A stretch of DNA of 15,431 nucleotides, taken from assembly GCA_028280355.1 (NCBI GenBank), contig JANQMB010000108.1:1-15431 (forward strand), given 5' to 3'. The notes under the pieces are model-generated. The model did no database searches and was not told where the DNA came from. It saw only the letters and a list, made by a program, of their open reading frames with translations. Source of the DNA: Verrucomicrobiales bacterium. Its GTDB lineage: Bacteria > Verrucomicrobiota > Verrucomicrobiia > Verrucomicrobiales > DEV007. Both the position numbers and the translations under genes were made by a program. Each line of letters opens with the position of its first letter. Within the stretch, counting starts at the first letter, position 1. Below are positions 1 through 11,743 of this stretch, in pieces.

Positions 1-926
1 TCGCGCACCGCCGCGACGAAATCGGCGACGATCGCCTCGTGCCCCTCGGTGTCTGAGACCGCCGCGCTATCAGCGCCGCTGTGTACCTCGAACCCCCCGC
101 TCCGCGACGGGTTCTCCACCCCCTCGACATCCCAGAGGGTGATCTCGTCGTTCTCCATCACCAGCGTCCCCCGCTCCGCGTGGATCTCCAGCACCGGGGG
201 GAAGCCCCCCGGACCGCAGACCGTCGAGGCGGTGAGGCTGCCGATCATCCCGCCGGGGTAGCGCATCGCCGCCACCCCGTGATCCTCGACCTCGATGTCC
301 CAGCGGACCGTCCCCAACATGCTCACCACCTCGTCCGGCATCCCGAAGAACCAGGTGAAGATGTCGACATTGTGTGCCGCCTGCTGGATGAAGGGGCCGC
401 CGCCGTCGATCTCGTACCCACCGCGGTAGTCACCGGAGCCGTAGTAGGCCATGTCGCGGTAGAACTTCACCCGCATGTCCGCCGCATAGACCTGCCCCAG
501 ATCCCCGCCCTCGAGCAGCCGCTTGACCGCGATGTTGTCCGGGCTCATCCGGCGCTGGAAGGCAACGGCCAGGGTCACCCCGGCGTCCGTACAGGCCCGC
601 TCCATCGCGTCCATGTTCGCCCGGGTCACGTCGAGCACCTTCTCGGTCAGGACATGTTTGCCACGGGCCGCCGCCTCGACCGCACCCCGGTGGTGGAGGC
701 CGTTGGGGGTGCAGAGGATCACCGAGTCGAACCCGGCACCCTCCGCCGCCGCACCGATCGACGGGAACACGGGGAGGCCGGCGGCGTTGTCCGGGCCCCG
801 GCCCGACCGCGACACGACCCCGACCACCGCGGCACCCGCCACCTTCCCCACCGCCTCGATGTACGTGCGGCCGATGTTGCCCGAACCGACGACGACGAAA
901 CGGAAATCTTGATCGCGATCGCTCAT
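1..926 (-). CDS. Gfo/Idh/MocA family NAD(P)-dependent oxidoreductase (partial; C-terminal end lies beyond the window start)
   Basis: Reverse-complement translation from ATG (complement of 924-926) reads MSDRDQDFRFVVVGSGNIGRTYIEAV...ILCTPNGLHHRGAVEAAARGKHVLTEKV... This has the N-terminal Rossmann GxGxxG motif and the conserved H...EK motif of Gfo/Idh/MocA enzymes. No stop occurs before the window edge. The plus-strand ORF 81..1382 in the track is its antisense shadow fused to the next gene. Confidence 0.8.
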   Translation of the reverse strand, partial: MSDRDQDFRFVVVGSGNIGRTYIEAVGKVAGAAVVGVVSRSGRGPDNAAGLPVFPSIGAAAEGAGFDSVILCTPNGLHHRGAVEAAARGKHVLTEKVLDVTRANMDAMERACTDAGVTLAVAFQRRMSPDNIAVKRLLEGGDLGQVYAADMRVKFYRDMAYYGSGDYRGGYEIDGGGPFIQQAAHNVDIFTWFFGMPDEVVSMLGTVRWDIEVEDHGVAAMRYPGGMIGSLTASTVCGPGGFPPVLEIHAERGTLVMENDEITLWDVEGVENPSRSGGFEVHSGADSAAVSDTEGHEAIVADFVAAVR

Positions 927-998
927 CGCCCGAACCCTAGGCGCCACATGCAAAAAAGTCCTGCGCTTCTCCGCAGCGATGCCAGAATACCGCCAGCC

Positions 999-1382
999 AT
1001 GCCCATCAAGTTCCTACACACCCGCATCCGCGTCAGCGACATCGACGCCTCGATCGCCTTCTATGAGAAGCTCGGCTTCAAGCTCGCCAGGCGCAACGAC
1101 AAGTCCCCCGCCGGCAACCGCCTGGCCTTCCTCGAACTCGACGCCAGCGAACACTTCCTCGAACTCTGCTACTCCCCAGACTTCAAAGTCGAGTTCCCCG
1201 AGGACCTGATGCACACCTGCGTCGGCGTCGAGGACATCGTCGAATACTGCGGGGGGCTCGAGGGCGAGGGCATCGAGATCTGGCCCGGCGGCTGGCGGGA
1301 CAAGTTCGCCGGCGACGACATGAAGATGGCCTTCGTCACCGACCCCGATGGTTACGAGGTCGAGATCCTCGAACGACAATGA
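999..1382 (+). CDS. VOC family protein, glyoxalase I (lactoylglutathione lyase)-like, 127 aa
   Basis: Starts at ATG 999, in frame with the 81..1382 track ORF. MPIKFLHTRIRVSDIDASIAFYEKLGFKL...LAFLELD...MAFVTDPDGYEVEILE closely parallels the GloA pattern (HT.LRV.D...S..FY...LG..L, ..AFV.DPDGY.IELIE). GC3 is high in this frame. Confidence 0.85.
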   Translation: MPIKFLHTRIRVSDIDASIAFYEKLGFKLARRNDKSPAGNRLAFLELDASEHFLELCYSPDFKVEFPEDLMHTCVGVEDIVEYCGGLEGEGIEIWPGGWRDKFAGDDMKMAFVTDPDGYEVEILERQ

Positions 1383-1457
1383 ACGGCGCCCAGGGGGGGA
1401 TCTCCGCGCCAAAACTTTAGGGTTCCCCTCGTCCGCGCCCCCCCTAGGTTCCCGGAC

Positions 1458-1670
1458 ATGGAGAAGACCAAAATCCTCTGCCCCTTCTGCGGGGTGGATG
1501 CGTTCGTCGATCCCGAGAGTCGCGGGCGGTCGGTCTTCTGCCCGCAGTGTGGGGGAGAGATGACCATCGACGGGACCCCGCTCGCGCCGCCCAGCGGCTC
1601 CGCCGTCCCGAGGCCGAACATCCCCCCGGCCCCGCCAGGGCCCGGGAATCCCCAGCAGCCATCCGGCTGA
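1458..1670 (+). CDS. small zinc-ribbon protein (CPFCG...16 aa...CPQCG) with a Pro-rich C-terminal tail, 70 aa, hypothetical
   Basis: ATG start. Two CxxC pairs 16 residues apart form a rubredoxin-like zinc-ribbon pattern. GC3 in this frame is very high, so it looks coding. No Shine-Dalgarno is visible, as for several other genes here. It ends at TGA 1668-1670, just before a coding-like segment in another frame. Confidence 0.5.
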   Translation: MEKTKILCPFCGVDAFVDPESRGRSVFCPQCGGEMTIDGTPLAPPSGSAVPRPNIPPAPPGPGNPQQPSG

Positions 1671-1678
1671 GCCTTGGA

Positions 1679-1810
1679 CAGGTTCTGTCCGCGGTCCTCT
1701 TTGCCACGACCCATGCTGTGACCGGCAGCGCGATCCCCGTGCCCTCGGCCGCCGCCTTCCTCGGCCTCGGCGGCATCGCCCTGCTGCGCCGCCGCCTCTG
1801 CGTACGGCAC
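1679..1810 (+). pseudogene. coding-like segment in a different frame encoding a PEP-CTERM-like sorting signal (…SAIPVPSAAAFLGLGGIALLRRRL…); no start codon of its own; possible frameshifted continuation of the zinc-ribbon ORF or a gene remnant
   Basis: In frame 2 (codon starts 1679, 1682, ...), third positions are almost all G/C from ~1679 to ~1810. The peptide has Pro-rich VPS, then a hydrophobic Gly-rich helix, then an RRR cluster, the classic PEP-CTERM architecture. After ~1811 third positions turn AT-rich, so this frame stops looking like coding. The nominal ORF in the track, 1547..1897, begins inside the zinc-ribbon ORF in another frame. Confidence 0.35.
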
Positions 1811-1958
1811 CAGTATTCTTTCGGGTCGAATTTTTGGGTTTGTCCCCTAATTCCCTTATCTTCTGGGGTCTGCCTGCCCCCTATGATTGCTGCATGAATT
1901 TGTTCTAAGGTCCCCTGCTCCCCCCGCGTCCCCTATCCCACAGACCACCAACAAAGAC
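1811..1958 (+). promoter_or_regulatory. AT-rich (for this genome) non-coding region upstream of the secreted-protein gene; probable promoter/5'UTR
   Basis: Local drop in GC, for example tattctttcgggtcgaatttttgggtttgtcccctaattcccttatcttc. No frame here has coding-like GC3. It lies directly upstream of ATG 1959. Confidence 0.3.
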
Positions 1959-2414
1959 ATGAAGAGACCAATCGCAATCCTCGCCGTCCTCTCCGCTCTC
2001 GCCATCTCCAACAAGGCGGACGCCGCCGCCGCTGGCGGGGCGATTATCTATGCCGATGGCAAAGAGGTCGCCGGCTACGTCGACAGCTTCCCCGACGGTC
2101 CGATAGACCCTTCGTGGGCCGCCCCGCTGCTCGGGCGCCTAGAGGGGGTCGCTTTGAAACTCGCGGATAGCCACGTTGTCGTGGTGGATCCGAAAGACGA
2201 CACGAAGGCGACCCTGAAGGGCAAGATCAAGGTGTCCGCGAGCTTCAGGGGCAGGGAGATCGCCACAGCCAAGACCGACAAGCTCGGCCTCGTCAAACGC
2301 GATGGGGAGTGGTACGTCTCGGGCAAGGAAATCGACCGCATCATGGTGGCGGCCGGCGCGAAGGCCCCTGAAAAGGTTGTCGAGCAGGCCCCAGAGAAGA
2401 AAGCGGGCAAGTGA
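1959..2414 (+). CDS. secreted/periplasmic hypothetical protein, 151 aa, Lys-rich C-terminal half, Sec signal peptide
   Basis: Internal ATG at 1959 of track ORF 1887..2414 gives MKRPIAILAVLSALAISNKADA|AAAGG. This is a positively charged n-region, a hydrophobic core and an AxA cleavage site. The upstream TTG extension crosses the AT-rich region and is unlikely to be coding. Codon usage is somewhat AT3-richer than in neighbouring genes. Confidence 0.7.
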   Translation: MKRPIAILAVLSALAISNKADAAAAGGAIIYADGKEVAGYVDSFPDGPIDPSWAAPLLGRLEGVALKLADSHVVVVDPKDDTKATLKGKIKVSASFRGREIATAKTDKLGLVKRDGEWYVSGKEIDRIMVAAGAKAPEKVVEQAPEKKAGK

Positions 2415-2471
2415 GCCCCTAGCTACCCGTGCGCTATCGCGACCCCGGGGGAGACCTGGCGATCGCGACCG

Positions 2472-5400
2472 CTAGTCCCCCTGCTGCACATCGGACTCGA
2501 TATCCACAGGAAGCTTCGGCGCCGCCGATTTCTTCTTCGCCGTCTTCTTCTGGGGGCGTGACGGCGCCTCCTCCACGGGCTGCACCTTGATCTCCACATC
2601 CACCGGCACGGCGCGCAGGCCAGCGATGATCCCCTGTAGCTGCTCGACGGTCTGCTCGGCCAAGGTCTGCGGCTGGCTGTAGCTCTGGCCGGCGGTGACG
2701 ATGGTCTCCCTGATGTCGTCGAGCCCCTTGCTGAAGGCGCCCATGGCACCGACGACGCGGGAGACCGGGTCGTCCTCACCGCCGCCGCCGAGCAGCTGGT
2801 TGCGGCTAAAAGTCTTGACGATCTCCTCCCAGCGCGTCGCCTCTTCGCCCTCGAGCAGCCCCTCCATCTCCTTGAATTTGAGCAAGTTGGCCTCCGCGCC
2901 GGAGGTCAGGGTCTGCGACTCGTTCTCGTAGTGGTCGATGATCGCCGCCTCGACCTCCCCGTCGGTCATCAGCGGCAGGATCTTCTCCGCCATGCGGTTC
3001 ATGTTGCGGTAGCTGCCCTGCAGCTTGAAGGCGGGTTCGGTGCGGTAGGCGTCCTCGGTGGCGGCGCTGCGGATGTACTCCTGGTTGACGCGCAGCACCG
3101 AGTCGCGCACGCGCATCAGCTTCCTCGTCACCGAGACCAGCTCCTCGATCTCGTCGGCCGTGTAGTTGCCCTCGAAGTCGACGCCCTCGGCGCCCCCGGT
3201 CTCGGCGATGTGCATCACCGCGTAGACGTCCTTCTGCGAGCGGCTGGCCAGCTTGCCCATCACCGGGTTGGAGGTGAGGGCGTTCTCGATGTAGCTGTTC
3301 TCGAAGGCGCGCGCGTGGGCGCCGATGATGTCGCCCAGGTTGTAGGTGTCGGCCCGGTTGGCGAGCATGTCCGGGATCTGGAACTTGCCGCCGCTCTCGG
3401 TGTAGGGGTTGCCGGCCATCACCACGGCGACCTTCTTGCCGCGCAGGTCGTAGGTCTTGGCGCGGCCGTTGTAGACGCCCTCGATCTTGCGCTGCGCGTC
3501 GCACAGGGAGATGAACTTCTGCAGGAACTCGGAATGGCAGTGCTGGATGTCGTCCAGGTAGATCATCACGTTGTCCCCCATCTCCAGGGCGAGGTTCAAC
3601 TTGAGGATCTCCTCGCGCGCGCCGGCGTTGGGCGCGTCCTCCGGGTCGAGCGAGGTCACGTCGTGCCCCAGCGCCGGCCCGTTGATCTTCATGAAGGTCA
3701 CGCCGAGCCGGTTGGCGATGTACTCCATCAGCGTGGTCTTGCCGTACCCGGGCGGCGACACCAGCAACAGCATCCCCATGCGGTCGGTGCGGGTCTCATC
3801 GCCCGCGGTGCCCATCTGCTTGGCCAGGTTGTCGCCCACCAGCGGCAGGTAGACCTCGTCGAGCAGCCTGTTGCGCACGAAGCTGCTCATGACCCGCGGC
3901 TTGAACTCGTCGAGCCGCATCCGCTCGCGCCGCCCGGTCACCAGCGCGGTCTTGAGGGTCACGAATGACTCGTATCGGGGCACGGCCTCGCGGCAGAAGT
4001 GGCGCAGCCGGGCGGTGAACTCCAGGTAGTCGAAACGGTAGCCCTCCGGGGAGACCCGCGGGTGCGCCCCGGACAGCCCATCGATGTCGCGCGCCAGCTC
4101 CACCTCGACCACGTGCTGTGCCTTGAAGCCGCGCAGCAGCTGCACGGCGGCCTCGGGGAGGTAGGTCTGGTCGGCGGCCGCGCCACCCTCCGCGCAGAGC
4201 AGGCCGGCCAGCCAGTCGGTGAGCGCCTGGTAGCGGGCGACGGTGTCCCCGTCGAGCTCGGCGAGCGCCTGCTCGAGCTTCTTGCTCAGGCGGCGGGCGG
4301 TGAGCGTCTTCTTGAAATGCCCCACCAGCTCCCCCGCCGCGGCCGAGATCGAGGTCTGCTCCGGGTCGAGCAGCTCGTGGAACAGGTAGAGCGCCGCCTC
4401 GTCCACGTCGCAGCCCGCGAGGCGCGGCAGCGAGACGGCATAGCGGTCGAGGAAAGAGGCGAGCAGCTCGCGCAGCTCGGCGATGTAGGTCTCGCGCGCC
4501 TCCAGCCCGGGGAAGCTGAGCGCGGCCATGCCGAACGAGCGCAACTTGGCGGCCAGCTTCTCCTTCTCCGCGGCATCGCCCCAGGCCTGCCAGAACAGGA
4601 GCCCCAGCGCGCGCTCGGCCGGCGGGTGCTTGAGCAGACCCGCGCCCCGGTGGATCGGCAACAGCGCCTCGAGGATCTTCGCCGCATCGCGGTCGTGGAC
4701 GCCCTTGGTGTACCCCTCGGCATAGCGCGGCGCCATGAACTCGCGCCCGGCCTCGGCGAGCTCCCCCCCCCCGGGGGTATCGGCCGCCGAGCCGCCCGGC
4801 GCGCCCTCGACCTCCTCCAGAAACTTCCAGGCCAGGTACTCGGCGCGGTAGACCTCCCCGTTCTCGCTGACGACGGTCTGCTCCCAGACCGGGCGCGTGT
4901 CGAGGAAGCCCTCGTCGTCGATGTGCTCGAAAAACTCGGTGCCGTTGAGGTGGAAGAACATTTCGCCGTCGCGGGGGACGGCGGTCAACTCGAGGTCCTG
5001 GGTGTTGACGTTGAAGCGGTGCTTGCCGAGCTGGATGATGTCCTTGCCGTCGACGAACAGCTCCTGCCGGTCCTTGAGCTGGCGCACGGCGTCCTCGCGC
5101 ACGGTCTTCAGGCGGGTCGAGACGTCGTCCGCCTTCACCGAGTCGCCGAGCTTGGTCAGCCGCGCGATGATGTCGCGCACCTTCTCGATCATCAGGTCGC
5201 CGGCGAAGTAACCGTTGATCTCGTTGACCGTGCCGAAACCCTCCAGGCGGCGCCTGATGCCACCGAGGATCCGCTCCGCCGACTTCAGGAGCGCGCCCGC
5301 GCGCCGCCCGCGCTCCTCGAGCAAGGCCTGCTTGCGCGTCTCGAAGGCCTCGTAGATCCCCTCGCGCTTCTCGGCCAGCTCGGTGATGTACTCGTCGAAC

Positions 5401-7622
5401 TCGCCGAACTTCCCCTCCAGCTCCTCGAGGGTGACCATGGTCTTGGTCAGGAACTCCTCGCACTTCTCCGGCGTCTCGCAGAGGTCGAGGTAGTTGATGA
5501 CCGCCTGGTCGAGCAGCTTCACCTGCGCGCCGAACTGCGCCTCACCCTCGACGCGCGCCAGCTCCCTGCGGCGGTTCTTGAGCGCCACTTTGACGGCGTT
5601 GAGCTCGGCGTAGATGGTCGAGATGTCGTCGATGATCGCCGTGGTCTGCGTGGCGTCCTCGATCTTGAGGTTGCCGACGATCTCGATCAGCATCTCCAGC
5701 TCGCCGCCCGCCGCGGCGATCGCCTCGCCGACCCCGTCGGCCTCGGTCACCTTGTCCAGCTTGCCGATCTTCGCCTGCTGTGTGGCGACGGCTTTGCGGT
5801 AGGGGTCGAGCGCCTCGGGCTTCAACAGGAAATTCACACAGGCGGCGGAGACCTTGTCGGTCGAAGCCACCACGTCGGCCTCCAGGGTGTCGACGGTTCC
5901 GGGGTCGACGTAGCGCAGCTCGCGCAGGCCGATCACCTCGCCGCGCACGGAGCGCAGCTCGGCGAGGCGGTGGACGAAACCGAGGATGTCGTCCGGCCGG
6001 GTGTGCTCGGCGGCCGAGAGGATCTTGCGCACCGCGTCGCCGACCCGCCCGGTCTCGTCGCGGGCGGCCTTGCGCAGGCGCTGGACTTTGTCGAACTCGT
6101 CGATCGCCGCCGCCGCCGCGCCGCGGATGACCTCTAGCGGTTCCCGCAGCCCGCCAGCCTCGCTCTGGCCGATCCAGAAGTAGCTGTCGCAGATGTCACC
6201 GGTCTTTTTCGCCAGGTCGACGTAGAGGTCGCCGTAGCTGTCGTCCTTGCCGAGCAGGGTGAGCACCTCGTGGCACTCGGCCATGCAGCGCACGACGTCG
6301 GCGTTGCCGATCTTGTAGAGATAGGAGCCCGCCGCCTCGCAGGGGGGGGCGTGGTCGCCGGCGGTGTACGGCGTCTGCCAGACCTGTAGCGCGTGGTGCT
6401 TGCCGGGCTCCTCCTCGGCGCGGAAGTAGATCATCTCGCCGGACCCGAACAGGCTGTAGCCGCTGCACAGGATCGGCGTGTCGACCTGCTGGCTGATGAG
6501 GTTGTAGGGCATCAGCACGTATTCGCCGCCGCGCCGGTTATAGAAGACGAAGAGGAAGTCCTCGCCGTTGGAGGAGGCGATGCGACGCTCGAAGACCATC
6601 TGGTCGAGCCCGTTGGCGAAGATCTTCGTCTCGCCGGTCTGCAGGTGGTATCCGTCGGCGAAGATGATGCCGTGGTCGTCGGGCAACAGCACGCAGGAGT
6701 GGCGGATGGAGTCGATGCGCTCGACGCGGCCGGTCTTCTCGTTGAACACCAGGATGCGGAACTGCTCCTCCTGGTAGGGCTTGATCTGCAACAGGATCAG
6801 GCTGCCGACGATCGCGTAGAAGACCTCGGCGTCGTCCAGGGTCTGGTCGGCGTTGTCGACCGGCTCCGAGTAGACGCCCTGGCCGGTCTCGGTGTTGTCC
6901 TCGACCTTGACGGTGAGGTCGCCACCGATGGTCTCGACGAAGAGGCGGTCGTCGACCGAGATATGCGGGTGGGCCCCGGGCCGGTGCATCTCGCGGTGGG
7001 CGCGCACCCAGTCGAACTCCTGCTGTGGGGGGAAGACGTACTCGTGGTCGGAGCGGTTGCCGACGTACTCTAGTTTGCCCTCGCCGATCCGGAACTTGAA
7101 GGTCTTCAGATCGTCGACGTCGCGCCCGATGCGGAAGGCCATGAAGAGGTGCGGGCCGCGCACCATGAACTTCACGAACAGGGTCTCCTTGTAGTACTTG
7201 TAGAGATACTTGAAGTCGTCGGCGAAACCGTCGCCCTCGATCAGATCCGAGAGCCCGAGGGCGTGGAAGATGTGCGTCTCGCTATCGTGGCGGTAGACGG
7301 CGAAGACGTCTGAGAGCTCGGTGGTGGACTTGAGCCCGAGCTGGACGTTGTAGCCGAACAGGAACACGCCGCCACCGATCGCCACCATGTCGCGCGGGGT
7401 GCAGTTGTTCTTGGTGGTGACCCGCTCGGTCGCCACCAGCTCCGGCTCGATGGCGCCAAACACCGCCTGGCGCTCGCCGTTGAGTTTGCCGAGGCGCCCG
7501 CGCAGGTCGGCCGCGCCCCTCTCGAGGCGCGCCCGGATCACCTCGTAGGCGCCGCCCTCGAGCTGGGCGGAGGCGGCAGGGGCTGCTAGGGCCGCGGCTG
7601 TTTCGGGGTCAGGCATCGTCAC
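2472..7622 (-). CDS. giant multidomain protein (1716 aa): beta-rich aromatic N-terminal domain (~aa 50-480), long alpha-helical/coiled-coil middle, AAA+ ATPase module of MoxR/AAA_5 type (~aa 1280-1440), Lys-rich C-terminal tail
   Basis: The ORF is uninterrupted with normal amino-acid composition. All overlapping ORFs in other frames are Arg/Gly/Ala/Pro-rich shadows. Walker A LLLVSPPGYGKTTLMEY is encoded around 3732-3755 on the minus strand. Walker B NVMIYLDDIQ is encoded around 3543-3567. A sensor-like region KKVAVVMAGNP lies downstream. GTG 7622 sits 8 nt from a GGGAGGG Shine-Dalgarno. The alternative ATG 7616 overlaps the stop of the upstream small ORF as ATGcctGA. Confidence 0.9.
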   Translation of the reverse strand: MTMPDPETAAALAAPAASAQLEGGAYEVIRARLERGAADLRGRLGKLNGERQAVFGAIEPELVATERVTTKNNCTPRDMVAIGGGVFLFGYNVQLGLKSTTELSDVFAVYRHDSETHIFHALGLSDLIEGDGFADDFKYLYKYYKETLFVKFMVRGPHLFMAFRIGRDVDDLKTFKFRIGEGKLEYVGNRSDHEYVFPPQQEFDWVRAHREMHRPGAHPHISVDDRLFVETIGGDLTVKVEDNTETGQGVYSEPVDNADQTLDDAEVFYAIVGSLILLQIKPYQEEQFRILVFNEKTGRVERIDSIRHSCVLLPDDHGIIFADGYHLQTGETKIFANGLDQMVFERRIASSNGEDFLFVFYNRRGGEYVLMPYNLISQQVDTPILCSGYSLFGSGEMIYFRAEEEPGKHHALQVWQTPYTAGDHAPPCEAAGSYLYKIGNADVVRCMAECHEVLTLLGKDDSYGDLYVDLAKKTGDICDSYFWIGQSEAGGLREPLEVIRGAAAAAIDEFDKVQRLRKAARDETGRVGDAVRKILSAAEHTRPDDILGFVHRLAELRSVRGEVIGLRELRYVDPGTVDTLEADVVASTDKVSAACVNFLLKPEALDPYRKAVATQQAKIGKLDKVTEADGVGEAIAAAGGELEMLIEIVGNLKIEDATQTTAIIDDISTIYAELNAVKVALKNRRRELARVEGEAQFGAQVKLLDQAVINYLDLCETPEKCEEFLTKTMVTLEELEGKFGEFDEYITELAEKREGIYEAFETRKQALLEERGRRAGALLKSAERILGGIRRRLEGFGTVNEINGYFAGDLMIEKVRDIIARLTKLGDSVKADDVSTRLKTVREDAVRQLKDRQELFVDGKDIIQLGKHRFNVNTQDLELTAVPRDGEMFFHLNGTEFFEHIDDEGFLDTRPVWEQTVVSENGEVYRAEYLAWKFLEEVEGAPGGSAADTPGGGELAEAGREFMAPRYAEGYTKGVHDRDAAKILEALLPIHRGAGLLKHPPAERALGLLFWQAWGDAAEKEKLAAKLRSFGMAALSFPGLEARETYIAELRELLASFLDRYAVSLPRLAGCDVDEAALYLFHELLDPEQTSISAAAGELVGHFKKTLTARRLSKKLEQALAELDGDTVARYQALTDWLAGLLCAEGGAAADQTYLPEAAVQLLRGFKAQHVVEVELARDIDGLSGAHPRVSPEGYRFDYLEFTARLRHFCREAVPRYESFVTLKTALVTGRRERMRLDEFKPRVMSSFVRNRLLDEVYLPLVGDNLAKQMGTAGDETRTDRMGMLLLVSPPGYGKTTLMEYIANRLGVTFMKINGPALGHDVTSLDPEDAPNAGAREEILKLNLALEMGDNVMIYLDDIQHCHSEFLQKFISLCDAQRKIEGVYNGRAKTYDLRGKKVAVVMAGNPYTESGGKFQIPDMLANRADTYNLGDIIGAHARAFENSYIENALTSNPVMGKLASRSQKDVYAVMHIAETGGAEGVDFEGNYTADEIEELVSVTRKLMRVRDSVLRVNQEYIRSAATEDAYRTEPAFKLQGSYRNMNRMAEKILPLMTDGEVEAAIIDHYENESQTLTSGAEANLLKFKEMEGLLEGEEATRWEEIVKTFSRNQLLGGGGEDDPVSRVVGAMGAFSKGLDDIRETIVTAGQSYSQPQTLAEQTVEQLQGIIAGLRAVPVDVEIKVQPVEEAPSRPQKKTAKKKSAAPKLPVDIESDVQQGD

Positions 7623-7812
7623 CTTGTCGCCCTCCCGTGAAACGGTAGCCGGCGGCGTCCTCCGCGACCCGTCCGGTCGGCCTCGCCATCCCTAACTCGA
7701 AGGCGAGTTCGCAAAGCTCCGCCATCAAGTCGATGCGGGTGGCGATCGCCTCTGGCGTCATCGCCGTCGAGATCGCCCGCCCCAGCGGATCCGGCTTTTC
7801 AGTCTCGTCCAT
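7609..7812 (-). CDS. small hypothetical protein (~67 aa, MDETEKPDPLGRAISTAMTPEAIATRIDLMAELCELAFELGMARP...)
   Basis: High GC3 (~80%) in frame. The ATG at complement 7810-7812 is preceded by GGAGAAG about 10 nt upstream. It overlaps the 3' end of the nucleotidyltransferase gene by 14 nt. Its stop overlaps the start of the giant gene. The longer 85-aa version from 7866 would overlap the NTase gene by 68 nt and has no Shine-Dalgarno. Confidence 0.45.
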   Translation of the reverse strand: MDETEKPDPLGRAISTAMTPEAIATRIDLMAELCELAFELGMARPTGRVAEDAAGYRFTGGRQGDDA

Positions 7813-8272
7813 CCCGAATCTTCTCCAACGCTTCGACATCAGCCAGGTCCTGTGCCCTGCCCGCATTCCGCTTCATGGCGATGAGGTCGTCCATGCCGAG
7901 CACCCAAACCTTCCTGCCGCCAATCTCGAACTCGACCCTCTGCCCCCATGCCTCACGCATCGCCGGACCGACCTCGAGGAGGTCGAGCATGACGAGCTCT
8001 TCGCGATCGACGCGCGAGATCCGGTGTACGACTTGCTCCTCATCCGAGTTTCTCCTGAAGGTCATTGTGTCCGCCCGGAGTATAAAGCCAGCCGCCCGGG
8101 CAAGTTCTTTCACGCGCGCGACATCGTCGCTCGCGACGAGGAGATCCACGTCCTCCGTGGCGCGAGGGTAGCCGTGGATGGCCACCGCCCACCCCCCGCA
8201 GATCGCATAGTCAACCCCAGCGTCAGACAGGGCATCGACGATCTCGTAGAACGCCTTCCTAACGCGGTTCAT
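7799..8272 (-). CDS. minimal nucleotidyltransferase (Pol-beta superfamily, MNT-like), 157 aa
   Basis: ICGGWAVAIHGYPRATEDVDLLV is a G[GS]-x(9-13)-[DE]-x-[DE] Pol-beta NTase motif, here with Glu/Asp (E-D-V-D) as the putative metal ligands. The C-terminal LGMDDLIAMKRNAGRAQDLADVEAL matches the conserved tail of small MNT-type nucleotidyltransferases. ATG 8270-8272 lies 2 nt after the flotillin stop. Confidence 0.8.
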   Translation of the reverse strand: MNRVRKAFYEIVDALSDAGVDYAICGGWAVAIHGYPRATEDVDLLVASDDVARVKELARAAGFILRADTMTFRRNSDEEQVVHRISRVDREELVMLDLLEVGPAMREAWGQRVEFEIGGRKVWVLGMDDLIAMKRNAGRAQDLADVEALEKIRDGRD

Positions 8273-8274
8273 CG

Positions 8275-10359
8275 CTATGCCCCCAACCCCTTCAGCAACT
8301 CCCCGGCCTTCTCCTCGGCCAGGCCGAAGCGCTCGGCGGCGCCGAGCAGACCCCTGAGCTTGGCGGTGGTCGCCTCGCTGTCGCTGGCGGCGATCATCTG
8401 CCCGAGCAGGGCGCTGACGCTGAGGTTCTTCAGGTCCTCGCTGCTCACTCCGAACTGCTCGATCCAGCTCGCGACCTGCGCCTTGAAGTACTCCGGGTCG
8501 CCGTTGAAGAAGGTGTCCCGCACGTCGCTCAGGGCGCGGCTGTTGTCGATCGTGCGGTCGACCGCCTTGCCGTTGGTGATCGCCTTGGTGATCTTGTCGA
8601 AGAACTCCGACTCGCCACCGACGATGTCGATCTTGGCGCTCTTCAGGGCCTCGCCGACGACCTTCGCCTGCTCGGCGGCGATCTGGCGCTGCACGTCGAT
8701 CTCGGCCAGCTCGACCTGCTTGTCCTTCTCGAGCTCCAGCTTGAACTCCTCGTGGCCCTGGCCGGCCTCCTCGAAGAGCTTCATGGCGGCGGCCTTCTTC
8801 TCGATGCCCTCGGCGTCGGCCTCGAACTTCTGCCTGGCGACGCTGGCCTCGGCCGTCCCCTGCCTCTCGGTGGCGTCGGCCTTGGCCTTGAGGACCTCGG
8901 CCTCGCCCAGGCCTTCGGCGGCGGCCTCTGCGGCGGTGGCGTCGGCGAGCATCTTCTTCGCCGCGGCCTCCTTCTCGGCCGCCTCCTGGGTCGCCTCCGC
9001 CTCGGTGACCACCTCCTGGGCGTGCAGTTCGGAGGCCTGGCGCCCCGCGTCGGCGGCCTTGACCCGCTCGTAGAGCTCCTGGTCGGCCCTCAGCTGGGCG
9101 GCCTCCTTGACCGCCTCCGCCTCCTTGATCTTCTTCACCAGCGCCTCCTGGGCATCCTTCTCGGCCAGCGTGACGGCGACCTGTTTCTCGCGGTCGGCGC
9201 CGGCGAAGGCCTCCGTGTCCAAGATGAGCTGCTGCTCCTCGACCACGGTCTTCTCGACGGCGACCCGCTCCTTGATGACCTCCTGGATGTTGCGCTTCTC
9301 GACCTCGACCTCCTTGTCACGCTCGATGCCCTTCAGGGCGGTGACGCGGTCACGCTCGATGGCCTCGAGCGAGCGATCGCGCTCGACGCGCTCCTTCTCC
9401 ACCGCGTCGGTGCGCTCTCGGTTGCGCGCGGCGACGATGACCTGCCGGTTTTTGTTCTCCTCGGCCACCTGCAGTTCCTCCTCGGTGGAGATGCGCGCCT
9501 GCTCCGACTTGAGCCGCTGCTCCTCCTCGACCTTCTTCGCCTCCGCCCCCTCGCGCGCCTGTACGGCGGCGACCTCGCGGGACTGCTTCGCCTCGGTCTC
9601 CGCGAGCTGCCGCTCCAGTTCCAGGATCGCCTCGCGCGCCTCGACGTCCTGCTGCTTGATCACCTTCTGTTTGTCCCGCTCGATGTCGTTGGTGAGCATC
9701 GCCTGCTCGGCGGTCTGCTTGGTGATCTTCTTGATGCCCTCGGAGTCGAGGATGTTGTCCGGGCTCATCGCCGCCAGGGGCGTCTGCTCGAGGTAGTCGA
9801 TCGAGGCGTCGTCGAGCACGAAACCGTTCAGGTTGGTGCCGATCACCTTGACGATCTCGTCGCGGAAGGTGTCGCGCTCCTCGTAGAGCTCGGTGAAATC
9901 GAAGCGCTTGCCCACCGTCTTCAGCGCCTCGGAGAACTTCGCGTCGAACAGGTGCTCGATCTCCTTGTGGCTCGAGGCGCGGGAGCAGCCGATCGACTGC
10001 GCCACCCGCTTGACGTCCTCGTTGACCGGGTTGACCCGGACGAAGAAGGCCACCTTGATGTCGGCGCGGATGTTGTCCCTGCAGATCAGGCCGTTGCTTC
10101 CGGAGCGGTCGATCTCGATGCGCTTGACCGAGATGTCCATGATCTCCTTGCGGTGGATCACCGGCAGGACCAGCATGCCCGAGAAGGTCACCTTGGTCTC
10201 GCCCATCCCCGTGCGCACCAGCGCGCGCCCCTGCTCCACCTTCACGAAGCACTTCAGGACGACGATGACCACCAGCACCAGGACGGCCACCGCTGCCGCG
10301 ATGACGATGCCGACGATGTTCTGTAGAAAGTTCGCTAGGGTTGGGTCGATGGCTGTCAT
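8275..10359 (-). CDS. flotillin-family protein (SPFH/band-7 domain plus extended E/K/A-rich coiled coil), YqiK/FloT-like, 694 aa
   Basis: N-terminal TM helix IVGIVIAAAVAVLVLVVIVVL. The SPFH core (~aa 40-230) includes EQGRALVRTGMG...TFSGMLVLPVIHRKEIMDISVKRIEID...IRADIKVAFFVRVNP. A very long heptad-like E/K/A/Q-rich region follows, then a conserved flotillin C-terminus. ATG complement 10357-10359 is preceded by a GAGGAGA Shine-Dalgarno. Its start overlaps the stop of the upstream gene as ATGA. Confidence 0.9.
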   Translation of the reverse strand: MTAIDPTLANFLQNIVGIVIAAAVAVLVLVVIVVLKCFVKVEQGRALVRTGMGETKVTFSGMLVLPVIHRKEIMDISVKRIEIDRSGSNGLICRDNIRADIKVAFFVRVNPVNEDVKRVAQSIGCSRASSHKEIEHLFDAKFSEALKTVGKRFDFTELYEERDTFRDEIVKVIGTNLNGFVLDDASIDYLEQTPLAAMSPDNILDSEGIKKITKQTAEQAMLTNDIERDKQKVIKQQDVEAREAILELERQLAETEAKQSREVAAVQAREGAEAKKVEEEQRLKSEQARISTEEELQVAEENKNRQVIVAARNRERTDAVEKERVERDRSLEAIERDRVTALKGIERDKEVEVEKRNIQEVIKERVAVEKTVVEEQQLILDTEAFAGADREKQVAVTLAEKDAQEALVKKIKEAEAVKEAAQLRADQELYERVKAADAGRQASELHAQEVVTEAEATQEAAEKEAAAKKMLADATAAEAAAEGLGEAEVLKAKADATERQGTAEASVARQKFEADAEGIEKKAAAMKLFEEAGQGHEEFKLELEKDKQVELAEIDVQRQIAAEQAKVVGEALKSAKIDIVGGESEFFDKITKAITNGKAVDRTIDNSRALSDVRDTFFNGDPEYFKAQVASWIEQFGVSSEDLKNLSVSALLGQMIAASDSEATTAKLRGLLGAAERFGLAEEKAGELLKGLGA

Positions 10360-11096
10360 TGTATCTCCTCTGTCTTTATGGGTTCCGTTTTACGGATGGT
10401 GTAAATCTGTGTGCCCTCCTCGTGGTCGATGACCATCACCTCGTCGCCGCGCGAAAGCGGCCCGGCGCCCCCGGCGACCCGCGCCTGCAACAACAGCGGC
10501 GAGCCGTCGATATCGACCTCCACCTGCCCGTAGCTCTCCGTCACCTCGCCCGTCTTGACGACGCCGACGCAACCCACCACCTTGACCTCCTCGCGGGCGC
10601 CGCGTCTAAGACCGCGCATCAGCGGTTTCATCGGGCTGGTGACGATCCGGGTGAGGGTGGCGCTGGTGATGAAATTCCCGACCAGCAGCCCCGCGGCCAG
10701 GACGAAACCGCCGCCGGGGTTGAGGTAGTAGTTGGCGATCATCGATGTCCCCCACATGAGCAGCGACATCATGCTGATCACCAGCGTCAGCGGCACCTCG
10801 CCCGCGTTGACAAACTTGAGGACGGCCACCCCGAGGTCGCCGAGCCCGCCACCGCTGTGCGCGCCGTGGAGGTCGTGGCCGGACGAGTGGTCGCCATCAG
10901 CGTGGGCGTCGACGTGGGCATCGACGTGGGCGTCCACATCGATGGCCACGTCCATGTCCCCGTCCAGGTCGACGTCGAGGCCCTCGTGGTGTGCGAGGCC
11001 GACCGCCACCATCAGCCAGTAGAGGCCGACGAGGCAGAGCAGCACGGTGAGCGGCAGGTTGTGCCAGACCAGGGCTTCTTGGACAATCTCTCCCAT
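10356..11096 (-). CDS. NfeD-like / YqiJ-like (DUF1449-type) membrane protein with C-terminal OB-fold beta domain, 246 aa
   Basis: N-terminal TM helix LTVLLCLVGLYWLMVAVGLA. An acidic His/Asp-rich loop follows. Two more hydrophobic helices are LGVAVLKFVNAGEVPLTLVISMMSLLMWG and GGFVLAAGLLVGNFITSATL. The C-terminal beta-rich segment VKVVGCVGVVKTGEVTESYGQVEVDIDGSPLLLQARV...GDEVMVIDHEEGTQIYTI is typical of the NfeD OB-fold. It sits upstream of the flotillin gene, the canonical NfeD-flotillin (yqiJ-yqiK) arrangement. Confidence 0.8.
   Translation of the reverse strand: MGEIVQEALVWHNLPLTVLLCLVGLYWLMVAVGLAHHEGLDVDLDGDMDVAIDVDAHVDAHVDAHADGDHSSGHDLHGAHSGGGLGDLGVAVLKFVNAGEVPLTLVISMMSLLMWGTSMIANYYLNPGGGFVLAAGLLVGNFITSATLTRIVTSPMKPLMRGLRRGAREEVKVVGCVGVVKTGEVTESYGQVEVDIDGSPLLLQARVAGGAGPLSRGDEVMVIDHEEGTQIYTIRKTEPIKTEEIQ
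10899..10934 (-). repeat. tandem 12-nt coding repeat (3 units) encoding (D-A-H-V/A)3 inside the His/Asp-rich loop (~10842-10991) of the NfeD-like protein
   Basis: Plus-strand units agcgtgggcgtc / gacgtgggcatc / gacgtgggcgtc run in tandem. The minus-strand frame translates them as DAHVDAHVDAHA. The antisense plus frame shows WASTWASTWAST in track ORF 10732..11022. Confidence 0.7.
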
Positions 11097-11228
11097 TGCA
11101 GTTTCAGATCACGTCCCCAGAGGTTGGGGGCGATGCGGTGTGGCGGTCAAGCCCGCCACCACCACCCCCTCTGCCCCGGAGACTTTCTCTACGCCGTGAA
11201 AATTAGGTGGCCAGCCGCCCCATGCCTA

Positions 11229-11253
11229 TTATAAAGGGGTTGTGCGTTTATAA
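11229..11253. promoter_or_regulatory. pair of palindromic TTATAA hexamers (centres ~19 bp apart) in the divergent intergenic region between the NfeD-flotillin operon and the HTH regulator gene; candidate operator / -10 elements
   Basis: ttataaa ggggttgtgcg tttataa. These are the only AT-rich islands in an otherwise GC-rich 185-bp intergenic region (11097-11281). They lie 30-50 bp upstream of the regulator start codon. Confidence 0.3.
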
Positions 11254-11281
11254 CCGCGCTCCGCCCCAACCCGCATACCGG

Positions 11282-11743
11282 ATGGAATCCCACGAAGTCA
11301 TCAAGAACGCCTGCGAGAAATGTAGCCCGAAGGAGGTCGCCGCAGAGCTCGGCGTGTCCCTCTCGCTCGTCTACAAGTGGGCGCAGCCCAACACCGAGCT
11401 CGGCAGCGGCAGCCGGAACCCCCTCGACCGGGTGCTCGAGCTGGTCCGCATCACCCGCGACCCGAGGATCATCGAGTGGGTCTGCGAGCAGGCCGGCGGC
11501 TACTTCGTCCGCAACCCGAAAAGCTCCTGTGAGGAGGGATACGAGGTCATGCCGGCGACCACCCAGATCGTCGAGCAGTTCGGTGCGCTGTTGGCCGAGA
11601 TCAGCAAGGCCGCGCAGGACAACTCCATCACCGACGAGGAGTCGTCGCAAATCCGCAAGGTCTGGGATGCGCTGAAGTCATACACCGAGGGCTTCGTCAA
11701 CTGCTGCGAGGAGGGCGACTTCACCAAGATCCGCAACCCGTAG
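11282..11743 (+). CDS. helix-turn-helix DNA-binding protein, phage lambda CII-like HTH (…[21 protein letters not shown]…), 153 aa, putative transcriptional regulator
   Basis: Internal ATG of track ORF 11207..11743. The upstream extension from GTG 11207 is AT3-rich and spans the TTATAA boxes, so I reject it. The HTH segment resembles the CII motif (AE.[LV]GV..S.[IV]S.WK.). GC3 is high throughout from 11282. It is transcribed divergently from the flotillin operon and ends 11 nt before the SDR gene. Confidence 0.7.

What the first reader, a model, noticed from the sequence alone, without database searches (positions are those of the whole stretch)
1458..1897. Zinc-ribbon ORF followed, out of frame, by a coding-like PEP-CTERM-type segment: possible frameshift or gene remnant
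Frame 0 (1458-1670) encodes a CxxC…CxxC zinc ribbon plus a Pro-rich linker. Immediately downstream, a different frame has strongly coding-like GC3 from ~1679 to ~1810. It spells SAIPVPSAAAFLGLGGIALLRRRL, a near-textbook PEP-CTERM/exosortase sorting signal. It has no start codon or signal peptide of its own. The junction region contains a CCCCCC homopolymer (1622-1627), the most likely site of a 1-nt indel, and both frames look coding across it. Options:
1. An assembly or sequencing indel splitting one gene.
2. A genuine pseudogene.
3. Programmed frameshifting.
4. A remnant of a PEP-CTERM protein whose N-terminus was displaced.
If real, the PEP-CTERM motif also implies an exosortase system in this organism.
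Basis: partly seen in the sequence, partly recalled or inferred. Interest (0 to 1): 0.5.

Follow-up and report, generated by a model that had tools for sequence, protein, structure and literature searches.

The report
Intact zinc-ribbon gene plus PEP-CTERM-like relic
A small zinc-ribbon gene, conserved in one other organism and complete as it stands, is followed in another reading frame by about 40 codons that look like the decayed tail of a cell-surface sorting signal; this is an ordinary gene fragment, not a frameshifted gene.

Summary
The sequence features are real. ORF 1458-1670 encodes a CxxC…CxxC zinc ribbon with a Pro-rich tail. From about 1685 to 1801 the codon-position GC signal moves to the -1 frame, which spells AIPVPSAAAFLGLGGIALLRRRL.

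The frameshift reading is not supported:
- A second assembly of the locus is 100% identical.
- An exhaustive search found one orthologue, P0005 (64 aa, 72% identity, dN/dS about 0.2). It has its own stop codon inside the same Pro-rich tail.
- Frame-0 conservation runs across the C6 homopolymer.
- Frame 2 does not look coding upstream of 1667.

The zinc-ribbon gene is therefore complete.

The downstream segment resembles a PEP-CTERM signal more than chance predicts. A relaxed motif hit only true PEP-CTERM tails plus this segment in 1.83 million six-frame residues of Verrucomicrobiales DNA. But it is not "near-textbook":
- It reads P-V-P, not P-E-P.
- Pfam scores it 12.1 bits against a cut-off of 20.7.
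- It has no canonical start codon.
- 33 low-GC codons follow the Arg cluster before a stop.

A functional mini-ORF with a CTG or ATC start overlapping the stop codon is not excluded. Interest is low.

The parts
1458..1670 (+). Complete small zinc-ribbon protein gene (70 aa, P0001). CxxC pairs at 1479-1490 and 1539-1550; Pro-rich tail from about 1575; TGA at 1668-1670.
   Evidence: ORF and translation. Sub-threshold zinc-ribbon Pfam hits. Orthologue P0005: 72% identity, 64 aa, own stop codon. dN/dS about 0.2.
1622..1627 (+).
   Evidence: Frame-0 residues on both sides align with the orthologue, PRPNI-PPAPP against PRPQIVPPTPP. Frame 2 upstream of 1667 scores -23.5 bits.
1667..1798 (+). Coding-like stretch in the -1 frame, LSLGQVLSAVLFATTHAVTGSAIPVPSAAAFLGLGGIALLRRRL. 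It contains a signal-peptide-like hydrophobic run (about 1670-1717), P-V-P at 1736-1744, a hydrophobic helix at 1748-1786 and RRR at 1787-1795. Probable relic of a PEP-CTERM tail. CTG 1667-1669 overlaps the TGA of the upstream gene (CTGA); ATC lies at 1661.
   Evidence: GC3 36/39 over 1685-1801. Motif specificity. Pfam PF07589 12.1 bits, below cut-off. Codon log-odds +10.2 bits.
1799..1897 (+). Continuation of the same frame to TGA at 1895-1897. GC is about 0.5 with no codon periodicity, so it looks like intergenic sequence rather than coding.
   Evidence: GC3 15/31, and GC 0.51 over 1802-1894. GC profile.
1417..1451 (+). Upstream motif pair TTAGGGTT … TAGGTTC, 7 nt before the ATG. It is conserved with the same 27-nt spacing in the orthologous locus L085 and may be a promoter or operator of the zinc-ribbon gene.
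   Evidence: Direct comparison of the two sequences. Function was not tested; the sigma-70 consensus scan found nothing.

Best explanation
There are two separate things here, not one broken gene.

(1) ORF 1458-1670 is an intact, expressed-type small gene. It encodes a cytoplasmic C4 zinc-ribbon protein with a Pro-rich tail and belongs to a very rare family with two known members.

(2) Immediately downstream, in the -1 frame, lie about 40 codons (about 1680-1800). These are the decayed 3' end of a former PEP-CTERM (exosortase-sorted) surface-protein gene. The helix and the Arg cluster survive. The body of the gene, its start codon and signal peptide are gone. The signature Glu now reads Val (GAG to GTG would be one change). 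The stop that should follow the Arg cluster is missing.

Shown: the sequence features, the completeness and purifying selection of the zinc-ribbon gene, and the specificity of the motif in this lineage. Inferred: that the segment descends from a PEP-CTERM gene and is no longer functional.
For: - The zinc-ribbon gene is complete. Orthologue P0005 (72% identity over residues 1-61) ends with its own TAG after 64 codons in the same Pro-rich tail. pS is 0.61 against pN 0.21, giving dN/dS of about 0.2. An independent assembly is identical.
- The downstream segment is PEP-CTERM-like. The relaxed motif P-x-P + 1-5 residues + 11-18 hydrophobic or small residues + [RK]3 occurs 8 times in 1.83 M six-frame residues of Verrucomicrobiales loci plus the window. 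Seven are true VPEP…RRRR tails, with a stop 0-4 residues after the matched [RK]3. The eighth is this segment.
- The null rate of that motif is 0.017-0.045 per window.
- The best tblastn match of the frame-2 peptide among the loci is the L027 PEP-CTERM tail.
- PF07589 is the only Pfam family hit for the frame-2 peptide.
- Frame-specific GC3 of 0.92 ends exactly after RRRL(C).
- Signs of decay: P-V-P where 9 of 9 true tails keep the Glu; 33 low-GC codons before a stop; no canonical start codon; codon log-odds below every in-frame window of confident genes.
Against: - Model-based support is weak. Pfam gives 12.1 bits against a cut-off of 20.7, and the hit is lost with a longer query. The HMM built from related tails gives only 4.2 bits, rank 56 of 18,851.
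- No homologue of the segment and no orthologous locus that extends downstream could be found. The only orthologous contig ends at the stop codon.
- The antisense frame over 1670-1810 has a similar codon log-odds of +10.9 bits.
- High GC3 retention could also mean that the segment is still translated.
- The motif was noticed first and tested afterwards, so the p-values are optimistic.
Confidence: 0.55

Rival explanations
1. A functional mini-gene. A 44-46-codon (or 77-79-codon, up to the TGA at 1895-1897) ORF starts at a non-canonical codon that overlaps the end of the zinc-ribbon gene: CTG 1667 in a CTGA overlap, or ATC 1661. It is translationally coupled to that gene and encodes a signal-peptide-like N-terminus (RLSLGQVLSAVLFATTHA|V) followed directly by a PEP-CTERM-like anchor.
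For: - The onset of frame-2 periodicity coincides with the stop codon of the upstream gene.
- CTG and ATC are table-11 start codons at 1667 and 1661.
- Frame-2 GC3 is 0.92.
- Codon log-odds is positive at +10.2 bits, no worse per codon than the proven zinc-ribbon gene at +10.1 bits over 70 codons.
Against: - CTG and ATC starts are very rare, and there is no Shine-Dalgarno-like sequence upstream.
- No gene was called here in the Logan annotation.
- There is no homologue among about 15 billion proteins.
- All 9 true PEP-CTERM tails in relatives sit in open stretches of 179-576 codons, never in mini-ORFs.
- The Glu is missing, and the 33-codon continuation is composed like intergenic sequence.
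Confidence: 0.13
2. A chance resemblance. The 288-nt spacer between the zinc-ribbon gene and the next gene is plain non-coding DNA, or a generic hydrophobic stretch, that happens to read as P-x-P + hydrophobic run + RRR in one frame.
For: - Scores are sub-threshold with every curated model.
- The HMM from related tails gives 4.2 bits, and about 46 random six-frame segments score higher.
- The Pfam hit is unstable.
- 2.5% of off-frame windows reach the same codon log-odds.
- An antisense frame scores equally.
Against: - The motif has no false positive in 1.83 M residues, and its null rate is at most 0.045 per window, or about 1e-3 for this spacer alone.
- The periodicity is in the same frame and ends exactly at the basic cluster (binomial tail 0.006).
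Confidence: 0.17
3. One gene split by a 1-nt deletion, either real or a sequencing error. The original protein would be zinc ribbon, Pro-rich linker and C-terminal membrane anchor.
For: - The architecture zinc ribbon + Pro-rich linker + transmembrane segment is common. Examples are the L082 440-aa protein and the L057 456-aa protein.
- Frame 2 is open from 1446 onwards.
Against: - The orthologue stops by itself in the equivalent tail.
- Frame-0 conservation crosses the C6 run.
- Two assemblies agree.
- Frame 2 is not coding-like before 1667, so the indel would have to lie within about 5 nt of the stop codon.
- A PEP-CTERM-type tail requires a signal peptide (PMC3237569), which a cytoplasmic zinc ribbon does not supply.
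Confidence: 0.08
4. Programmed -1 ribosomal frameshifting from the zinc-ribbon frame into frame 2, for example at C CCC CCG (1622-1628).
For: A heptamer of the X XXY YYZ type exists at 1622-1628 (read directly). A small hairpin lies at 1676-1690.
Against: - The heptamer is absent from the orthologue, which reads atc gtg ccg ccg.
- Frame 2 between the heptamer and 1667 is non-coding-like.
- The hairpin region folds no better than shuffled sequence, z = -0.9.
Confidence: 0.02

Closest known systems
PEP-CTERM / exosortase sorting signal (Pfam PF07589, TIGR02595; Haft et al. 2006, as described in PMC3237569 and PMC4960237)
   Same: The layout is tripartite: a short Pro-containing motif, a hydrophobic helix of about 13 residues rich in Leu and Gly, then an Arg cluster. 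The residues just before the motif (…GSAIPVPSA) resemble real tails of related genomes (…TAAVPEPSS). The lineage (Verrucomicrobiales) uses this system heavily.
   Different: The Glu of P-E-P is Val. The segment is not at the end of its reading frame; 33 more codons follow. It has no canonical start codon or upstream protein body. It scores below the curated cut-offs. An exosortase could not be looked for.
MYXO-CTERM / GC_trans_RRR-type C-terminal sorting domains (TIGR03382, TIGR03901)
   Same: A helix followed by RRR. TIGR03382 gives 14.1 bits, close to its cut-off of 15.85.
   Different: It is below the cut-off, it has no Gly-Cys signature, and that family belongs to Myxococcales rather than Verrucomicrobia.
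Small stand-alone C4 zinc-ribbon proteins and N-terminal zinc-ribbon modules of PVC-group proteins (nearest Pfam: PF08271 Zn_Ribbon_TF, PF14354 Lar_restr_allev)
   Same: CPxCG … CPxCGG spacing. The module is 31-41% identical to repeated or N-terminal ribbons in larger proteins (P0006-P0027; L057).
   Different: It is below every Pfam and NCBIfam cut-off. It stands alone with a Pro-rich tail. Only two members are known.

Membership tests
PEP-CTERM sorting domain | Pro-Glu-Pro signature motif | tested here: not met
   The segment reads P-V-P (ccc gtg ccc, 1736-1744). All 9 true tails in related loci keep the Glu: 7 read PEP and 2 read PEA.
PEP-CTERM sorting domain | Transmembrane helix directly after the motif | tested here: met
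   SAAAFLGLGGIALL (1745-1786) has the same length and Leu/Gly-rich character as real tails.
PEP-CTERM sorting domain | Cluster of basic residues after the helix | tested here: met
   RRR at 1787-1795.
PEP-CTERM sorting domain | Located at the extreme C-terminus of the protein | tested here: not met
   The stop comes 33 codons after the RRR in that frame. In the 7 tails found by the motif search the stop comes 0-4 residues after the matched [RK]3.
PEP-CTERM sorting domain | [quoted passage not shown] | tested here: inconclusive
   There is no ATG, GTG or TTG in frame between 1547 and 1718. A signal-peptide-like run (LSLGQVLSAVLFATTHA) exists, but only behind CTG or ATC codons. No signal-peptide predictor was available.
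PEP-CTERM sorting domain | Score at or above the curated model cut-off (PF07589 / TIGR02595) | tested here: not met
   PF07589 gives 12.1 bits against 20.7, and the hit is lost with the 149-aa query. TIGR02595 was not reported.
PEP-CTERM sorting domain | Exosortase (EpsH/Xrt) encoded in the same genome, usually with many PEP-CTERM paralogues | not testable with these tools
   Only this 15.4-kb contig is available. None of the six window proteins scanned against Pfam matched an exosortase family, and the six-frame scans list only their top 25 families. The window contains no other PEP-CTERM-like tail.
C4 zinc ribbon (e.g. PF08271 Zn_Ribbon_TF) | Two CxxC knuckles with ribbon spacing | tested here: met
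   C8-P-F-C11 and C28-P-Q-C31 are invariant in the orthologue.
C4 zinc ribbon (e.g. PF08271 Zn_Ribbon_TF) | Score at or above the Pfam gathering cut-off | tested here: not met
   21.7 bits for P0001 and 24.2 bits for P0005, against a cut-off of 29.

The most novel reading that the evidence does not exclude
The -1-frame segment is a live mini-gene. It would start at a CTG or ATC codon that overlaps the stop of the zinc-ribbon gene and would be translationally coupled to it. Its product would be a cargo-less peptide made only of a signal peptide and a Glu-less PEP-CTERM-like anchor. The zinc-ribbon protein and this membrane peptide would then form a previously undescribed two-gene small-protein module.
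Probability: 0.1. Interest if true: 0.4.

Novelty: new member of a known kind. Interest (0 to 1): 0.15.

Why it matters
It matters mainly for annotation. The 70-aa zinc-ribbon ORF should be kept as a complete gene, not flagged as frameshifted. The downstream stretch should at most be marked as a PEP-CTERM-like gene fragment. The fragment hints that this uncultured Verrucomicrobiales lineage uses exosortase sorting, like its relatives, and that the spacer was shaped by a rearrangement. The zinc-ribbon protein itself belongs to a very rare two-member family of unknown function, which is a minor curiosity.

Tried and rejected
- **Word-indexed protein search with the fused peptide** found only the query's own 70-aa protein.
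- **Genome-collection scan with the downstream 151-aa protein** found nothing.
- **Scan with the neighbouring ATPase** returned 80 Verrucomicrobiales loci. None carries the zinc-ribbon gene, the segment, the 151-aa gene or the glyoxalase next to the ATPase, so synteny is not conserved.
- **The two homologues of the 151-aa protein** have unrelated upstream regions.
- **The metagenome scan** returned only an unrelated Firmicute-like protein with a zinc ribbon, linker and transmembrane segment. It is an analogy, not an orthologue.
- **The profile search with both zinc-ribbon orthologues** found no third member, and the viral collection had none.
- **The orthologous contig L085** ends exactly at the stop codon, so the key downstream comparison was impossible.
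- **Other scans.** Promoter and terminator scans found nothing in 1300-2100 and the Rfam scan nothing above threshold in 1200-2200. The hairpin at 1676-1690 is not significant.
- **An empirical Pfam background over all six-frame chunks of the window** was uninformative. The tool lists only the top 25 families, and the candidate's own hit fell below the filters.
- **The antisense ORFs 1352-1810 and 1444-1776** were rejected as shadows of the conserved zinc-ribbon frame. Their products are low-complexity, and the GC order of codon positions 1 and 2 is the wrong way round.

Full report
**What is in the sequence**

The window is a whole 15,431-nt contig, held by NCBI and re-assembled by Logan from SRR20820735. 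Its genes place it in Verrucomicrobiales. The neighbouring 1,716-aa DUF3686/AAA ATPase (2472-7622, minus strand) has its best matches, 56-69% identity, in 80 loci, nearly all labelled Verrucomicrobiota (Verrucomicrobiales, Akkermansiaceae, Rubritalea, Haloferula, Prosthecobacter).

Around the finding, the genes on the plus strand are:
- a glyoxalase at 999-1382;
- the 70-aa ORF at 1458-1670;
- a 288-nt spacer;
- a 151-aa secreted orphan protein at 1959-2414.

The 70-aa ORF has C8xxC11 and C28xxC31 and a Pro-rich tail. It hits zinc-ribbon families only below their cut-offs.

The position-specific GC maximum switches frame just after the stop codon. Frame 0 has GC3 of 0.80-0.93 up to about 1680. 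Frame 2 (the -1 frame) has 0.87-0.93 over 1680-1830. Counted by codon, frame 2 has 36/39 G or C at third positions over 1685-1801, then 15/31 over 1802-1894. Frame 2 reads LSLGQVLSAVLFATTHAVTGSAIPVPSAAAFLGLGGIALLRRRL and then continues for 33 low-GC codons to TGA at 1895-1897.

**Is the zinc-ribbon gene broken? No.**

- The Logan contig L001 is 100% identical to window 1-3026. The arrangement is therefore not the product of one assembler, although the reads may be the same.
- The exhaustive phmmer search of 1.84 billion representative proteins found one close relative, P0005. It is 64 aa long and 72% identical over residues 1-61.
- Its gene, on JGI contig L085, starts at the same Met. It ends with its own TAG inside the equivalent Pro-rich tail: …PPSGSAVPRPQIVPPTPPAES*, against …PPSGSAVPRPNIPPAPPGPGNPQQPSG* in the window.
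- Frame-0 residues are conserved on both sides of the C6 homopolymer. That rules the homopolymer out as an indel site.
- Over 60 aligned codons pS is 0.61 and pN is 0.21, so dN/dS is about 0.2. This is purifying selection in frame 0.
- Frame 2 upstream of 1667 is not coding-like. Its GC3 is 29/40 and its codon log-odds is -23.5 bits. The statement that both frames look coding across the homopolymer therefore fails.
- The C CCC CCG heptamer could in principle be slippery. It is absent from the orthologue, and the hairpin after the stop codon folds no better than shuffled sequence. Programmed frameshifting has no support.

**What is the downstream segment?**

Evidence that it is related to PEP-CTERM:
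- I searched all six frames of about 915 kb of Verrucomicrobiales loci plus the window (1.83 M residues) for a relaxed motif: P-x-P, 1-5 residues, 11-18 hydrophobic or small residues, at most one residue, then [RK]3. It occurs 8 times. Seven are unmistakable PEP-CTERM tails, such as AVPEPSSALLGSIALLGLLRRRR*, with a stop 0-4 residues after the matched [RK]3. The eighth is the window segment.
- Codon-shuffled and Markov nulls give 0.045 and 0.017 chance hits per window. Those chance hits are Ser/Thr/Cys-rich, not Leu/Gly-rich.
- The best tblastn match of the frame-2 peptide among the loci is the L027 PEP-CTERM tail.
- PF07589 is the only Pfam family hit by the peptide.
- The codon periodicity is in the same frame and stops exactly after the basic cluster.

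Evidence that it is not a working, typical PEP-CTERM domain:
- The signature reads P-V-P. All 9 true tails in relatives keep the Glu: 7 read PEP and 2 read PEA.
- PF07589 scores 12.1 bits against a cut-off of 20.7, and the hit vanishes when the 149-aa open stretch is the query.
- A narrow HMM built from 7 tails of related genomes gives only 4.2 bits, rank 56 of 18,851 six-frame segments. The score rises to 15 bits if the Glu is restored.
- There is no ATG, GTG or TTG in frame between 1547 and 1718.
- The frame does not stop after the Arg cluster.
- The codon log-odds of +10.2 bits is in the top 2.5% of off-frame windows but below all 356 in-frame windows of confident genes. The proven zinc-ribbon gene is no better per codon.
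- The literature definition requires a C-terminal position, a P-E-P motif, a helix, a basic cluster, an N-terminal signal peptide and an exosortase in the genome (PMC3237569; PMC4960237). Two of these are met, three are not met when the model score is counted, one is inconclusive, and one is untestable here.

**Most likely history (inferred)**

The spacer holds the last 40 or so codons of a former PEP-CTERM surface-protein gene. Its 5' part was lost when the present arrangement arose. The zinc-ribbon gene sits in different surroundings in its two known hosts: a glyoxalase here, and a PIN toxin pair with an ABC ATPase in L085. That fits local rearrangement.

Single-base changes would account for two of the defects. 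GAG to GTG gives Glu to Val. TGA to TGC after RRRL removes the stop. Both are conjecture.

**Rivals**

- A live mini-ORF cannot be excluded. CTG 1667-1669 overlaps the TGA of the zinc-ribbon gene in a CTGA arrangement, and ATC lies at 1661. The first 17-19 residues look like a signal peptide with a T-H-A cleavage-type site. Against this, the start codons are non-canonical, no gene was called there, no homologue exists, and true PEP-CTERM tails in relatives always belong to open stretches of 179-576 codons.
- Pure chance remains possible, given the weak model scores.
- A split gene would need an indel within a few bases of the stop codon, and the orthologue contradicts it.

**Limits**

No orthologous locus that extends downstream could be obtained. 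L085 ends at the stop codon, a third family member was not found, and synteny with the flanking genes is not conserved. The rest of the genome, and so the exosortase question, is out of reach.

**Verdict**

The frameshift interpretation is wrong. This is an ordinary gene fragment next to a rare but intact small zinc-ribbon gene, and interest is low.

Noticed in passing
window 1417-1451; L085 2375-2409: The only conserved non-coding sequence between the two zinc-ribbon loci is a pair of motifs, TTAGG(G)TT and TAGGTTC. Their start-to-start spacing is 27 nt in both loci, and the second motif ends 6-7 nt before the ATG. It could be a -10-like box for a leaderless mRNA, or an operator.
   Followed up: partly
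window 1389-1399 / 1438-1448: A G7/C7-containing inverted repeat (11-nt arms, 91% complementary, 38-nt loop) lies between the glyoxalase stop codon and the zinc-ribbon start codon.
   Followed up: no
window 2472-11096 (- strand): A 1,716-aa DUF3686 + DUF7902 + AAA ATPase is conserved across Verrucomicrobiales. Further along the minus strand lie a 694-aa Glu/Lys/Ala-rich protein with an N-terminal hydrophobic segment (8275-10359), which reads like a coiled-coil membrane protein, and an overlapping 246-aa hydrophobic protein (10356-11096). Neither has a Pfam hit. The two overlapping genes may form an operon.
   Followed up: partly
window 11207-11743 (+): This ORF matches Phage_CP76 (CII-like regulator, E 2e-11). 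It may be of prophage or mobile-element origin.
   Followed up: no
window 1959-2414 (+): The 151-aa secreted protein is nearly an orphan. It has only two homologues (63% and 56% identity) among 5.8 billion protein clusters, and each sits in a different genomic context.
   Followed up: yes
L080 and L081 (C-terminal tails of the 363- and 426-codon open stretches): Two Prosthecobacter-type PEP-CTERM tails read V-P-E-A instead of V-P-E-P. The third motif position therefore varies naturally, while the Glu is kept.
   Followed up: no
L057 11833-13203 (-): A Luteolibacter 456-aa protein has an N-terminal zinc ribbon, similar to the window's, fused to a multi-pass membrane domain. The same ribbon module occurs as tandem repeats in other proteins (P0006, P0010, P0016).
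   Followed up: partly
window 2053-2191 (+): A weak Rfam radC RNA match (22 bits against a gathering score of 40, E 0.07) lies inside the coding region of the 151-aa gene. It is probably chance.
   Followed up: no
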